In this document: piece after piece, positions 21,801 through 24,800 of the stretch
Layout: every line of letters starts with the position of its first letter
Numbering within the stretch: the stretch's first letter is position 1
Source of the DNA: Candidatus Woesearchaeota archaeon
GTDB taxonomy: Archaea; Nanobdellota; Nanobdellia; Pacearchaeales; GW2011-AR1
Direction of reading: 5' to 3'
DNA length: 34,543 nucleotides
NCBI GenBank assembly: GCA_964450135.1
Contig: CAYVCF010000002.1
Span: forward strand, 1 to 34,543
Position numbers and translations under genes: made by a program
The notes under the pieces: generated by a model
Databases searched by the model: none
Told to the model about the DNA's origin: nothing
What the model saw: only the letters and a program-made list of their open reading frames with translations

Positions 21801-24800
21801 TGTTTTATACCACAAAGAAACAGAATTATTATTTTGAGTAGTTGTTGCTGAAACATAATCCCCTGCCCCATCAAAACTAAAACTTTTTCCAAGTCGTCCA
21901 GACGCATTTTGTTGTGCGTTTCCGAATTTTGTTCCGTTGCTATTTCCTGACCACACAATTAAATTATTTCTTTTCACAAGCAAAATATCATTCTCAACAT
22001 CAACATCGTAAATTTTTCCAGAATAATTTTCTTTCCTGATATTTTTAACTTTTATTAAATTTTTATTTTCATCTAAGAAATAAACTTGTTTTCCGTTGAG
22101 GAAATCAGAATATACCTCTGTGATTGGTTGAAGCCCAAAATCATTTACAGAAAAGTTTAAATATTCTTTATAATTGTTTTCAATCATGGAAGAAATTGTT
22201 GTTAAAATTGATGTGCCTTCTGAACTTAATGAAGAATTTAAATCAGCATTAACTAAAGTAGTTAAACAATTTACAAGAAGAATGCAATTTTCTTTAGCAG
22301 ATAATTTGTTGTCTAAAAGCAAATTAACAGACGAACAAATATCTGAACTTGCATCTGAGCTAAAAGAACAAGTTGCAGAAAAACACGGACTTTGAAAAAT
22401 GGAATCTATTCCAAAAAAGTTAGTCATTGATGCAAATATTTTATTTTCATTTTTCCAGCATAAATCATTTAGAAGATATTTAATTGAAGAATTGCTAAAT
22501 TCAGATTGTGAATTAATTTCTCCTAAATTTGTTTTTGAAGAATTGATGAATTCAAAATCTAAAATATTAAAATTCTCTGGGATAGATAAATCCGAATTTG
22601 ATTTTCTGTATTCACTATTATCGTCAGAAATTATTTCTGTTAAGAGTTCTGAATATTTTTCATTTTTATCAGAAGCAGATAAAATTTCCCCGCATAGTTC
22701 TAAGAAGGACTCTCCATATTTTGCGCTTGCGCTTTTTTCAAATTGCCCAATCTGGTCTGATGAAAAAGCATTTCTTAAACAAGATAAGATTAGAATTTTA
22801 TCAACAAAAGATTTATTGAAATTATTAAGATTAGAATAGACCTTGTGCTTTGGACTAACAACTAAATCTCCTTTTTCTGTTTCAATCGCAAACATTTCAT
22901 CATCATAATCAAAAGTTTGGTATTCAATTGGTTTATCAAATTCTATTTCTCCGGTTTTTTGATTTAATGTTGCGACTTCTTCTTTTCCGTTTAAGTCAGC
23001 AAAATATTTCCAAGAATAATTATAACACTTTTTATTTTTGTCGTCGGAAACTTCAGAAAAATTTGTGCGCTCGCGTGCAAGCACGCTTTCATCAGCGCCG
23101 AAGGCGACAAATTCTTTTTTCAAATTTTCTTCTTTATAATTTTTATTCTCATTATTTTTATCTTCAATATTTTCCAAATTATTTACCCCCACAAAATTAT
23201 TTTCTCCGCAAGAAATTTCTTCTCTAACTAAAATTTTTGTCTTATTATCATAACATCTTCCCATATAATCCACAACATCTCCAGAAGAATTTACATCATC
23301 CATTCTCCACCATGCAACTAAAGAATTATCCCAATCAACAAAAGTTGAAATATTTGCTTGCGTGTCATTTGAAGTTGCGTTTATGAAAATTGAATTTTGA
23401 TTTCCACCTTGCTGTGAGCCATTTGCTGGAGTTGGAGTTTCAAATTGTGTGAAAGGTTGTGAAGTGTCTACAAAAATATGTCTGATTGTTGTCTTGTTTA
23501 CATTTCCTGCAACATCTTGAACATAAGCAGTGTAATTATAAGTTCCATCTGGTAAATTTGTAAAATTATTTTCAACTCCATAATTTGGAGCGCTTGCGTT
23601 ATACAAACTTTTAATTTCCGACGCTGACAACGCGCGATTAAATATCATAACATCGTCGATGGAGCCGTTGAAATAACTTGTAGCTGAATTACTTCTACCT
23701 ATTTCTATAGAACTTGTACTTGTCACAATTGCCCCGCTAATTATTGAATTATTTTCTAAAACCCCGTTAATATAAATTGCAGAATATCCAGAAGAGTTTC
23801 TTGTAGAAAAAATATTATACCAAGAATCTGCATTCCAATTTGAAGTAGCAGAAGACAAATCAATATAAGAACCATTATAAATAATCAATTTCAATTTCCC
23901 ATTTTGAGAAGGATAATCAAATGCTAAATAATAAGCAACATTTTTATTAATAAGACGAATATTTGAATTCGTGTTGTTTATTATCACTGCAGGTTTTATC
24001 CAAATTCCTAAAGAGATTTCATTAGAAATATTTAAACTATTTCCAGTTCCAACATCAACATAATCCCCGTCCCCATCAAACGCAAACGCCTTTCCTCTTT
24101 TTCCTGACGCTGTTTGATTTGCATTTCCATAAGAAATTCCGTTGTTAGAATTTCCTGACCACACTCCACAATTTCCGTCGTCAGATTCAAATTCAAAAAT
24201 TTCTCCTGAAATATTTAAAGAACAAAATTTGTTTTTGTCGTCGGAAAAACCAAGGACGCGAGCAGAGGGAATCGAACCCCCAAACCCCGAAGGGCACTCA
24301 GGATCAGTGAGTTGTAATAACCATTCTACCATGCCCGCATCCAAATTATCAGAATCTACCGAAATATTTAAATACTTCTCTTCTCTACAATTATTATTAC
24401 TCAGGATCAACGAGTTGGGTTCAACCATTCTATTCGAACCCTCTTTATTTTTATTTTCGTCGTCGCCAAAATTTTCTTCTTCATAATTTTTTGCATCTCT
24501 TTTTATCAAAACAATATCATTTTCAACATCAACGTCGTAAATTTTTCCAGAATAATTTTCTTTTGAAATTGATTTTACTTTTACAGGTTTATTTTCTGAG
24601 TTTAAGAAATAAATTTCTTTTCCATCTAAATAATTTTCATAAACTTCTGTGATTGGTTGAAGAGAGAAAGATTTATATAATTCTTGGTTACTAATTTTAT
24701 TATGAGAATTGCTATTAATGATTTCATTGTTACAGATAGTGAAATTTGCGGAGGCGTCCCAGTTTTCAATAACACAAGAATTATGGTCTGGCAAGTTATG

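What the first reader, a model, noticed from the sequence alone, without database searches (positions are those of the whole stretch)
22156..22839. Complete PIN toxin-antitoxin operon encoded antisense inside intein 4, with the intein frame kept open
The position between blocks B and F normally holds a homing endonuclease. Here the opposite strand carries a TATA box, a 69-aa antitoxin-like gene and a 146-aa PIN gene. The giant ORF reads through all about 700 nt without a stop. With the observed frame offset, a minus-strand stop arises wherever a plus codon ending in T or C precedes TA-, or one ending in T precedes CA-. Every Tyr, His and Gln codon in the PIN gene is preceded by a codon ending in A, G or C accordingly. 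These preceding codons include the AT-poor choices CTG-TAT and CCG-CAT. An addiction module in place of a homing endonuclease would give the intein a post-segregational way to persist. I am not aware of this having been described.
Basis: partly seen in the sequence, partly recalled or inferred. Interest (0 to 1): 0.9.

Follow-up and report, generated by a model that had tools for sequence, protein, structure and literature searches.

The report
Toxin-antitoxin operon nested antisense in intein
A working-looking toxin-antitoxin gene pair sits on the opposite strand inside a self-splicing protein segment (intein) of a 7,112-residue archaeal surface-protein gene. The host reading frame stays open through it, and related archaeal genomes show the same arrangement repeatedly, which has apparently not been described.

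Summary
Intein 4 (window 23255..21942, minus strand) of a 7,112-codon ORF carries three plus-strand features between splicing blocks B and F. These are a TATA box (22157-22164), a 69-aa antitoxin-like gene (22186-22395) and a 146-aa PIN_2 gene (22399-22839; Pfam 1.8e-20; AlphaFold pLDDT 95; VapC-like fold). The intein frame crosses all 699 nt without a stop.

For this cassette alone the codon argument is weak: 6-7% of synonymous shuffles stay open. Related loci make the case.
- 17 cassettes of this PIN_2 clade all have an open antisense frame.
- Three free-standing PIN_2 pairs have 3-6 stops in that frame.
- The joint resampling probability for 8 cassettes is 10^-8.6.
- Intein 3 holds a second antisense pair (DUF433/DUF5615). 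Its DUF433 gene uses no TTA, CTA or TCA codon (P=6e-4; 10^-9.8 over four loci).
- Related inteins hold a LAGLIDADG endonuclease at this site, or nothing, or one or two antisense pairs.
- One Aenigmarchaeota ORF stays open across all 8.4 kb fetched, opposite 15 called genes.

Most likely these are selfish cassettes that lack stop codons on their antisense strand and lodge in inteins, where protein splicing removes their translated antisense. An addiction role for the intein is plausible but untested. Eight literature searches found no precedent.

The parts
12843..34181 (-). Host gene: a 7,112-aa giant surface-protein ORF with Laminin_G_3, CARDB and Ig-like repeats and a C-terminal HerA/DUF87 ATPase. 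It is interrupted by four inteins.
21942..23255 (-). Intein 4 (aa 3643-4080). It has Cys1, the block B motif KHKVY, a terminal Asn, and +1 Ser at 21939-21941. It has no endonuclease domain.
   Evidence: Splicing it out in silico restores a contiguous Laminin_G_3 match across the junction.
22833..23012 (-). Intein 4 N-terminal splicing half, WKYF...KHKVYS (block B). Block A (CYDNKTKIL) lies at 23229-23255. An unexplained 72-aa insert lies at 23013-23228.
22134..22832 (-). A 233-codon stop-free linker in the intein frame. It is the translated antisense of the TA cassette. It is Ser/Asn/Leu-rich and matches no Pfam family.
21942..22133 (-). Intein 4 C-terminal splicing half, LQPITEVY...DVDVENDILLV...VWSGN (blocks F and G).
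22157..22164 (+). Archaeal TATA box TTTAAATA, preceded by a purine-rich AAAAG. Scored on the 60 bases upstream, it begins 30 nt before the antitoxin ATG, which suggests a leaderless transcript.
   Evidence: The same box sits at the same distance in 7 cassettes of two TA families. The base rate of TTTAWATA is 0.42 per kb per strand.
22186..22395 (+). A 69-aa antitoxin-like gene. It is co-conserved with the PIN gene. It has no Pfam hit of its own, but relatives are labelled RHH_12.
   Evidence: (the P0006 fusion carries PF26688)
22399..22839 (+). A 146-aa PIN_2 (VapC-like) toxin gene. Its last sense codon and its TAG stop overlap the complement of the intein block B codons for V-Y-S.
24150..25952 (-). 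Intein 3 (aa 2744-3344). It has a 213-codon stop-free linker at 24663-25301.
24671..25308 (+). Second antisense cassette, inside intein 3. It comprises TATA TTTATATA at 24671-24678, a DUF433 gene at 24702-24941 and a DUF5615 (PIN-like) gene at 24922-25308. Its TAG stop overlaps the same block B V-Y codons as in intein 4.

Best explanation
What it is. The window comes from a DPANN archaeon, most likely Pacearchaeota-like. Its giant LamG-repeat surface-protein gene carries four copies of one intein at the same site of four LamG domains. In intein 4, the loop between splicing blocks B and F is filled by a compact 0.7-kb cassette on the opposite strand. Relatives of this intein hold a LAGLIDADG homing endonuclease at that position. 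The cassette has its own TATA promoter, a small antitoxin gene, a 3-nt spacer and a VapC-like PIN_2 toxin gene.

How it fits the host frame. The cassette is built so that its complementary strand has no stop codon.
- The antitoxin and toxin genes are in the same phase.
- They lie in the antisense register in which third codon positions of both strands coincide.
- The few risky dicodons use A- or G-ending codons (or C-ending before CAN).

How it most likely works (inferred). The ribosome reads the giant mRNA straight through the cassette as a 233-residue Ser/Asn/Leu-rich linker. Protein splicing then removes that linker together with the intein. This makes the insertion harmless to the host protein.

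Who benefits. The cassette belongs to a clade of selfish TA modules adapted to this lifestyle. They move among inteins and the 3' ends of giant genes, probably by recombination that carries intein fragments along. Purifying selection on the host gene keeps the frame open.

Shown versus inferred.
- Shown: the architecture, the intact genes, the selection for openness, and the recurrence.
- Inferred: transcription from the TATA box, toxicity and its neutralisation, splicing with the linker in place, and any post-segregational benefit to the intein.
For: 1. The genes are real and intact.
- PIN_2 matches at E=1.8e-20.
- The AlphaFold model has pLDDT 95.1 and pTM 0.89.
- The best PDB matches are PAE0151 and VapC toxins of VapBC complexes, with TM-scores mostly 0.5-0.7.
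- D11 and D104 are nearly invariant and E48 is invariant across 59 homologues.
- The antitoxin is co-conserved with the toxin in more than 10 loci.

2. The insert is an intein.
- Cys1, the block B His, the terminal Asn and +1 Ser are all present.
- In-silico excision gives a continuous Laminin_G_3 match across the junction, 31.4 bits against a cut-off of 27.6.
- The relative L006 has LAGLIDADG_3 (2e-12) at exactly this position, and L003 has nothing there.

3. The arrangement recurs with an open frame.
- L002 (Pacearchaeota): two antisense pairs in one 627-codon intein inside a 1,901-aa ORF.
- L004 (Woesearchaeota), L005 and L003.
- L012: a cassette in an unrelated intein family.
- L001.
- L019: a frame open across all 2,811 codons fetched, antisense to 15 called genes.

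4. Selection keeps the frame open.
- All nine cassettes counted have 0 stops in the frame shared with the host, and 12-31 stops in each of the other two antisense frames. L015 and L017 are also open in the shared frame.
- The antitoxin and toxin genes are always in phase.
- P(open) per cassette is 0.03-0.24, and the product over 8 cassettes is 10^-8.6.
- DUF433 genes in four loci use no TTA, CTA or TCA codon, although 41-49% of local Leu codons are TTA or CTA. The product is 10^-9.8.
- Three free-standing RHH_12/PIN_2 pairs in housekeeping neighbourhoods have 6, 3 and 6 stops.
- The clade's proteins carry a lower expected antisense stop load than distant homologues, 1.31 against 2.15 per 100 codons, p=5e-4.

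5. Constraint acts on the plus-frame proteins. Between the window and L001 there are 39 differences: 10 at plus-strand codon position 1, 2 at position 2 and 27 at position 3.

6. The promoter is conserved. A TATA box begins 30 nt before the ATG in 7 cassettes.
Against: - For this cassette alone, the open frame is only mildly improbable once the protein sequence is fixed (P of about 0.06).
- There are no expression, splicing or toxicity data.
- Pfam Intein_splicing hits are below the gathering score, 19.8 bits against 35.8.
- The penultimate His of block G is replaced by Gly.
- An AlphaFold model of the whole intein was uninformative, with pLDDT 38.
- Several cassettes of the clade lie outside any recognisable intein yet are still open on the antisense strand (L009, L011, L012_1, L015, L017). 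Host-frame selection therefore cannot be acting on them now. Either the openness is a recent relic or there is another cause. L027 does keep intein remnants on both flanks.
- The cassettes are phylogenetically related, so the product of probabilities overstates independence. The risky sites do differ between cassettes, which mitigates this.
Confidence: 0.78

Rival explanations
1. Addiction-for-the-intein. The TA module has functionally replaced the homing endonuclease. Cells that precisely delete the intein lose the labile antitoxin and are killed or arrested by the stable PIN toxin. A non-homing mini-intein therefore persists.
For: - None of the four window inteins has an endonuclease, yet all keep their splicing residues.
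- TA cassettes occupy the endonuclease site in at least six inteins of two intein families.
- TA modules are known to stabilise chromosomal integron arrays and integrative elements (own knowledge).
Against: - Inteins 1 and 2, and L003 at its block B-F site, carry no TA cassette there yet still keep their splicing residues.
- The same cassettes also sit outside inteins, so the association serves the cassette at least as much as the intein.
- There is no functional test.
- This is compatible with the best explanation. It adds a benefit to the intein rather than replacing the mechanism.
Confidence: 0.3
2. Chance or composition. The TA genes landed there, and the antisense frame is open only because this antisense register and this protein family are naturally poor in antisense stops.
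For: - P(open) is 0.06-0.07 for the PIN gene and 1.0 for the antitoxin when the protein is fixed.
- The PIN_2 family has a low intrinsic stop load in this register, about 2 per 100 codons against 4-5 in other genes.
Against: - 17 of 17 clade cassettes are open against 0 of 3 controls.
- The joint probabilities are 10^-8.6 and 10^-9.8.
- Promoters and spacers are also stop-free, and all genes share one phase, including 14 of 15 genes in L019.
- DUF433 uses CTC for 6 of its 9-10 Leu codons. CTC makes up 2-6% of background Leu codons.
Confidence: 0.03
3. The giant ORF is not translated through the cassette. The gene is broken at the cassette, either as a pseudogene or as a split intein whose halves are made separately and spliced in trans. 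On this view the open frame is irrelevant.
For: - Gene callers split these genes at the cassettes.
- L001 and L027 hold truncated intein remnants next to cassettes.
- In L011 three cassettes are out of frame with each other.
Against: - If read-through were unnecessary, nothing would select for stop-free antisense frames, in-phase genes, or cassette lengths divisible by three.
- In the window, a 7,112-codon ORF in 31.6% GC DNA runs through four inteins and two cassettes.
- The downstream half has no evident start or promoter of its own. This was not tested exhaustively.
Confidence: 0.05
4. Nuclease cargo as a homing device. The PIN-like nucleases (PIN_2, DUF5615), with their small DNA-binding partners, act on DNA as free-standing homing endonucleases that cut cassette-free or intein-free alleles.
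For: - Both cassette types encode PIN-superfamily nucleases plus a small putative DNA-binding protein, exactly at the endonuclease site.
- Cassettes travel with partial intein C-half copies (L002, L003, L019). Repair-mediated copying could produce this pattern.
Against: - The closest structures are RNA-targeting VapC toxins.
- The same clade occurs at non-intein sites.
- No target-site evidence exists.
- Unequal recombination between the several intein copies in one gene explains the partial duplications more simply.
Confidence: 0.04

Closest known systems
Homing-endonuclease-containing inteins (LAGLIDADG type, e.g. PI-SceI or PI-PfuI; here the relative L006)
   Same: - A Hint-fold splicing domain sits in frame at a conserved host site.
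- A second selfish element is nested in the loop between blocks B and F.
- The nested element is removed from the host protein by splicing.
   Different: - The cargo here is on the opposite strand and has its own promoter.
- It comprises two separate genes and is not part of the intein polypeptide.
- The intein polypeptide contains only the meaningless translated antisense.
- The cargo is a TA pair, not a DNA homing nuclease.
VapBC type II toxin-antitoxin modules
   Same: - A small upstream antitoxin gene lies next to a PIN-fold toxin of about 140 aa with conserved acidic residues.
- The operon is compact.
- Such modules are abundant and mobile in archaea.
   Different: - Clade members differ from ordinary VapBC pairs in lacking the usual overlapping or out-of-phase junction between the two genes.
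- Both genes are held in one phase, and codon use is constrained by the complementary strand.
- The antitoxin domain is not assigned by Pfam.
Rickettsia palindromic elements, selfish DNA inserted in frame within protein-coding genes (own knowledge: Ogata et al. 2000)
   Same: A mobile element survives inside ORFs because it keeps the host frame open and is tolerated in the protein.
   Different: - RPEs are about 100-150 bp and non-coding, and they remain in the mature protein.
- Here the element is a 0.7-kb operon with its own genes, and its translation product is excised by the intein.
TA cassettes in chromosomal integron arrays and integrative elements (own knowledge: Vibrio superintegrons; mosAT of SXT)
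   Same: - TA pairs occur as small promoter-bearing cassettes, sometimes in tandem arrays (L011, L019).
- They are thought to stabilise the DNA that carries them.
   Different: - No integrase or attC-like sites were found.
- The arrays here lie inside or at the end of a giant ORF on its antisense strand.
Inteins with non-endonuclease filler, e.g. large tandem repeats in the Trichodesmium DnaB intein (own knowledge)
   Same: The endonuclease position tolerates long in-frame sequence that has no role in splicing.
   Different: The filler here is the antisense of functional genes and is under dual-strand constraint.

Membership tests
Intein (Hint-domain protein-splicing element) | Nucleophile (Cys, Ser or Thr) at position 1, and a C-terminal Asn followed by Cys, Ser or Thr at +1 | tested here: met
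   All four inserts start with Cys, end in Asn, and are followed by Ser.
Intein (Hint-domain protein-splicing element) | Conserved splicing blocks B (TxxH) and F/G | tested here: inconclusive
   - Block B reads (S)xKHKVY with the His invariant, and block F DVDVENDI is invariant.
- Block G lacks the penultimate His (VWSGN).
- Pfam Intein_splicing hits are sub-threshold: 16.7-27.4 bits against a cut-off of 35.8.
- The whole-intein AlphaFold model was uninformative.
Intein (Hint-domain protein-splicing element) | In-frame insertion whose removal restores a contiguous host domain | tested here: met
   The in-silico spliced product gives one Laminin_G_3 match (residues 84-220) across the junction at residues 110/111. 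The score is 31.4 bits, above the cut-off of 27.6.
Intein (Hint-domain protein-splicing element) | Autocatalytic protein splicing | not testable with these tools
   This needs expression with model exteins.
Homing-endonuclease intein | A LAGLIDADG, HNH or other endonuclease domain in the intein frame | tested here: not met
   No endonuclease family was found in any of the four window inteins or in the 233-aa linker. The relative L006 does have LAGLIDADG_3.
VapBC-type (PIN) type II toxin-antitoxin | Toxin with a PIN fold and conserved acidic active-site residues | tested here: met
   - PIN_2 matches at E=1.8e-20.
- The model has pLDDT 95.
- Foldseek finds VapC chains and PAE0151.
- D11 and D104 are at least 90% conserved and E48 is invariant.
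VapBC-type (PIN) type II toxin-antitoxin | An adjacent upstream small antitoxin gene with a DNA-binding domain (RHH, AbrB, etc.) | tested here: inconclusive
   - Adjacency and co-conservation are met.
- The window antitoxin has no significant Pfam hit.
- Relatives carry RHH_12: the P0006 fusion, and genes in L002, L011 and L019.
VapBC-type (PIN) type II toxin-antitoxin | Toxin toxicity that is neutralised by the antitoxin, with a labile antitoxin | not testable with these tools
   This needs expression assays.
DUF433/DUF5615 (COG2442 / PIN-like) predicted TA pair (second cassette, intein 3) | A DUF433 gene immediately upstream of, or overlapping, a DUF5615/Mut7-C-like gene | tested here: met
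   DUF433 matches at 9.6e-19 and DUF5615 at 5.6e-16, with a 20-nt overlap. The same pair occurs in L003, L004 and L019.

The most novel reading that the evidence does not exclude
DPANN archaea harbour a class of small gene cassettes that have evolved to lack stop codons on their complementary strand. They include TA pairs of at least two families and other small genes. Promoter-bearing tRNA-like genes occupy comparable intein sites on the sense strand.

This property lets the cassettes colonise inteins and other tolerated positions inside giant surface-protein ORFs. Inteins then act as protein-level erasers of nested mobile DNA. The most extreme case seen is 15 called genes lying antisense to one ORF that stays open across the 8.4 kb fetched (L019).

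In return, the TA cargo may give endonuclease-free inteins an addiction-based way to persist.
Probability: 0.55. Interest if true: 0.92.

Novelty: categorically new. Interest (0 to 1): 0.88.

Why it matters
1. It would be the first case of an intein carrying independent genes on the opposite strand. It adds a new layer to nested selfish elements: host gene, then intein, then antisense operon.
2. It shows long-range dual-strand coding constraint in prokaryotes, which is rarely demonstrable. The signatures are clear and quantifiable: phase locking, avoided codons, and matched controls.
3. It offers a testable answer to an old question: how do inteins without a homing endonuclease avoid being lost?
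4. It explains why gene callers fragment DPANN giant genes and mislabel the pieces, so annotation pipelines need to handle it.
5. A naturally tolerated 230- to 480-residue linker in a mini-intein, and stop-free antisense cassettes, may interest protein engineers.

Tried and rejected
- AlphaFold on the whole of intein 4 with a 4-sequence alignment gave pLDDT 37.8. This is uninformative for either the Hint fold or linker disorder.
- A search of the protein database with the 232-aa antisense peptide gave only 4 called proteins of 273-338 aa. Gene callers rarely call that strand, so it did not work as a survey. One hit led to L027.
- I tested whether the window PIN protein is specially adapted at the amino-acid level. 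Its P(open) of 0.064 matches the homologue median of 0.058. That comparison set is mostly the adapted clade itself. Splitting near from distant homologues gave a modest real difference.
- A within-gene synonymous shuffle cannot see the DUF433 signal, because the gene contains none of the forbidden codons. I replaced it with resampling from background usage.
- The scan of viral contigs found no relatives of the PIN gene.
- The GC-rich stretch in the block A insert (23030-23125) does not fold better than shuffled sequence, z=-1.1.
- The window antitoxin and six relatives have no significant Pfam family.
- Eight full-text literature searches and one paper check found nothing describing genes or TA modules antisense in inteins.
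- I rejected the idea that the plus-strand ORFs are spurious (Pfam, structure, substitution pattern).
- I rejected assembly artefact, because the arrangement appears in independent NCBI, JGI, ENA and Logan assemblies.
- I rejected a genome-wide codon-junction bias, because other genes in the window have 4-5 antisense stops per 100 codons in the same register.
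Full report
**1. What is in the window**

A single ORF of 7,112 codons runs on the minus strand from 34181 to 12843. The DNA is 31.6% GC.

The protein has Laminin_G_3, CARDB and Ig-like domains and a C-terminal HerA/DUF87 ATPase. Its neighbours are cellular genes: topoisomerase I, a thioredoxin and a metallophosphoesterase. 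Most of the named homologues of the embedded PIN gene are from Candidatus Pacearchaeota MAGs.

Four inserts share the ends CYDN[EK]TKIL...VWSGN followed by Ser:

| Intein | Residues |
|---|---|
| 1 | 99-422 |
| 2 | 1987-2336 |
| 3 | 2744-3344 |
| 4 | 3643-4080 |

Their splicing blocks are nearly identical. They differ by large insertions at three points: after block A, between blocks B and F, and between blocks F and G.

Pfam recognises Intein_splicing only below threshold. However, removing intein 4 in silico restores one continuous Laminin_G_3 match across the junction, 31.4 bits against a cut-off of 27.6. I therefore treat these inserts as inteins sitting at the same site of four LamG repeats.

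**2. The observation**

Inside intein 4, the plus strand carries three features:
- TTTAAATA at 22157-22164.
- A 69-aa ORF at 22186-22395.
- After a 3-nt spacer, a 146-aa ORF at 22399-22839.

The 146-aa protein is a PIN domain.
- Pfam PIN_2 matches at E=1.8e-20.
- The AlphaFold model has pLDDT 95.1.
- The best PDB matches are PAE0151 and VapC toxins from VapBC complexes.
- D11 and D104 are nearly invariant and E48 is invariant across homologues.

The 69-aa protein has no Pfam hit of its own. It is co-conserved with the PIN gene in every related locus. It is also homologous to genes that Pfam labels RHH_12.

The intein frame crosses the 233 codons between KHKVYS and LQPITEVY (22832..22134) without a stop. 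That peptide is Ser/Asn/Leu-rich and matches no family. The PIN stop codon TAG is the complement of the intein's own block B codons GTC-TAT.

**3. Is the open frame more than chance?**

The register is the one in which the third codon positions of the two strands coincide.

Generic genes in the window have 4-7 antisense stops per 100 codons in every antisense frame. The longest open antisense run in about 7,700 background codons is 177.

- The PIN gene stays open in 7.4% of within-gene synonymous shuffles and 6.4% of resamplings from background usage.
- The antitoxin stays open in 100%, because its Gln and His residues follow Lys, Glu or Met.

On this cassette alone, the 'kept open' claim would be only suggestive.

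**4. A second cassette in the same gene**

Intein 3 carries a different predicted TA pair at the same site and also antisense:
- DUF433 (24702-24941, E=9.6e-19).
- DUF5615 (24922-25308, E=5.6e-16).
- A TATA box beginning 30 nt before the ATG.

Its toxin stop codon overlaps the same block B V-Y codons. Here the antitoxin gene lies codon-on-codon with the intein frame, so any TTA, CTA or TCA codon would be a host stop. It has none.
- Six of its 9-10 Leu codons are CTC, which makes up 2-6% of background Leu codons.
- TTA plus CTA make up 48% of background Leu codons.
- P(open) is 6e-4.

**5. Related loci**

Scans with the mini-intein, and look-ups of PIN homologues, found the same arrangement repeatedly.

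| Locus | Source | What it shows |
|---|---|---|
| L002 | Pacearchaeota GCA_016181885.1 | One 627-codon intein with two antisense RHH/PIN_2 pairs and no stop, inside a 1,901-aa ORF |
| L004 | Woesearchaeota | Antisense DUF433/DUF5615 between blocks B and F |
| L005 | metagenome | Antisense antitoxin plus PIN_2 (5e-23) in an intein of an ORF of at least 3,011 aa |
| L003 | Woesearchaeota | Block B-F site empty, but a DUF433/DUF5615 cassette between blocks F and G; ORF open for 1,399 aa |
| L012 | metagenome | A cassette in an unrelated intein family (TAEHPYF...VAHN\|T) |
| L006 | metagenome | The same intein family with a sense-strand LAGLIDADG_3 endonuclease at the site |
| L001 | metagenome | 93% identical to the window cassette plus the intein C-half |
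| L019 | Aenigmarchaeota GCA_018304635.1 | One minus-strand frame open across all 2,811 codons (8.4 kb) fetched, antisense to 15 called genes, 14 of them in one phase |

**6. Selection**

- All nine RHH/PIN_2 cassettes counted have 0 stops in the shared register and 12-31 in each of the other two antisense frames. L015 and L017 are also open in the shared register.
- The antitoxin and toxin genes are always in phase, with gaps of 0, 3 or 6 nt.
- Adding L005, L012_2, L027 and the three PIN genes of L019 gives 17 of 17 open.
- P(open) per cassette under local codon usage is 0.03-0.24. The product over 8 cassettes is 10^-8.6. Rare CCG is used repeatedly before His.
- The four DUF433 genes give a product of 10^-9.8.

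Three free-standing RHH_12/PIN_2 pairs in ordinary neighbourhoods serve as controls (L021, L023, L025). They have 6, 3 and 6 stops in that register, and two of the three are out of phase.

The clade's proteins also have a lower intrinsic stop load than distant homologues, 1.31 against 2.15 per 100 codons, p=5e-4.

Between the window and L001, substitutions fall 10, 2 and 27 on plus-strand codon positions 1, 2 and 3. That pattern is expected if the TA proteins, not the antisense peptide, are the constrained products.

**7. Complications**

Some cassettes of the clade are not in an intein. They lie just past the 3' end of a giant gene or between genes, yet they are still open on the antisense strand (L009, L011 x3, L012_1, L015, L017).
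- In L011, each of three cassettes is followed by a copy of the host C-terminus.
- In L002, L003 and L019, partial intein C-half copies accompany the cassettes.
- In L027, a 'free' cassette is flanked by block B and C-half remnants.

I read this as movement of cassettes by recombination between intein or host-gene copies, with openness persisting as a clade property. This is inference.

**8. Mechanism**

The mechanism is as given under Best explanation. Translation reads through the stop-free antisense of the cassette. Protein splicing then discards that segment. The cassette keeps its own leaderless promoter, with a TATA box beginning 30 nt before the ATG in 7 cassettes of two families. The base rate of TTTAWATA is 0.42 per kb per strand.

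Whether the TA pair pays the intein back by post-segregational killing is open. Inteins 1 and 2 persist without one.

**9. Novelty**

Eight full-text searches and one paper check found no report of genes or TA modules antisense in inteins. The components are known. The architecture, and the adaptation of the cassettes to it, appear not to be.

Noticed in passing
window 24254-24339, 25540-25623, 27293-27377, 27730-27813, 33440-33527 (all minus strand, inside inteins 1-3): Five tRNA-like genes are embedded in frame on the sense strand of the giant ORF. ARAGORN calls them Ile(GAU), 84-88 nt. Rfam tRNA scores are 47-53 bits against a cut-off of 29. There are two sequence types, both with a long variable arm, and type 2 encodes a 3' CCA. 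In the type 1 copies a TTTAAATA box lies about 25 nt upstream. In the type 2 copies a TATA motif lies about 28 nt upstream but matches on the plus strand. They translate as recurring '...VAEWLLQL...GSIPTPGV' peptides in the intein.
   Followed up: partly
window 24671-25308 (+), inside intein 3: A second antisense TA-like cassette (DUF433 and DUF5615) at the same block B-F site. The DUF433 gene has no TTA, CTA or TCA codon (P=6e-4).
   Followed up: yes
L019 1-8433 (Aenigmarchaeota GCA_018304635.1, JAGVVW010000030): One minus-strand frame is open across all 2,811 codons fetched. It lies antisense to 15 called plus-strand genes: DUF433/DUF5615, three PIN_2 genes (two with RHH_12 partners), two Asp_protease genes and unknowns. 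The cassettes are separated by repeated 'FEFQPVSEVY...' intein-like fragments and 'GSTSNPS' tRNA-like motifs.
   Followed up: partly
L011 1878-4707 (Pacearchaeota GCA_016204145.1): Three TA cassettes in tandem at the 3' end of a 1,029-aa gene. Each is followed by a copy of the host C-terminus '...DCITFR(T)GGKICAG*'. Each is open on the antisense strand, but the three are in different frames. This looks like repeated insertion or recombination at one site.
   Followed up: partly
window 23013-23228 (intein 4) and the homologous stretch of intein 3 (about 25650-25925): A 72-aa or longer insertion lies directly after block A (CYDNxTKIL|V REEI...FGAFGA..S.LARE..NFSE...KKCYNYS|WKYF). It ends in a second 'CY' motif, as if an older intein N-terminus had been displaced. 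In intein 3 it also contains a tRNA-like element. The GC-rich core does not fold better than shuffled sequence (z=-1.1).
   Followed up: partly
window 27405-27417 and 33555-33567 (+): The promoter-like motif AAAG(W)TTTAWATA occurs only four times on the plus strand of the window: ahead of the two TA cassettes, and at these two sites in inteins 2 and 1. These two sites lie next to type-2 tRNA-like elements and are flanked by repeated 'VASMV(R/M)H' coding. There may be further divergent transcription units.
   Followed up: no
giant ORF, LamG repeats (e.g. around aa 1700-1960 and 4110-4180): A stretch of about 70 aa ('DGDGDYVSATTTQNNNSVSLWYKTNVSNWIHVVYNSTYNYNGGTGIEFPFNRTDNTILIGVNGTQFFNGS') recurs three times almost identically. 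This indicates recent internal duplication or gene conversion among LamG modules, which could also spread inteins between repeats.
   Followed up: no
window 7805-7904 (+): A free-standing tRNA gene of 100 nt (Rfam 56 bits). ARAGORN does not call it, so it probably contains an intron.
   Followed up: no
L002, L009, L012, L015 and others: Public gene calls split the giant genes at every cassette and leave the intein halves unannotated. In GCA_053535155.1 (L027) the antisense frame itself is annotated as a 301-aa hypothetical protein. This is a systematic annotation problem for DPANN giant genes.
   Followed up: partly
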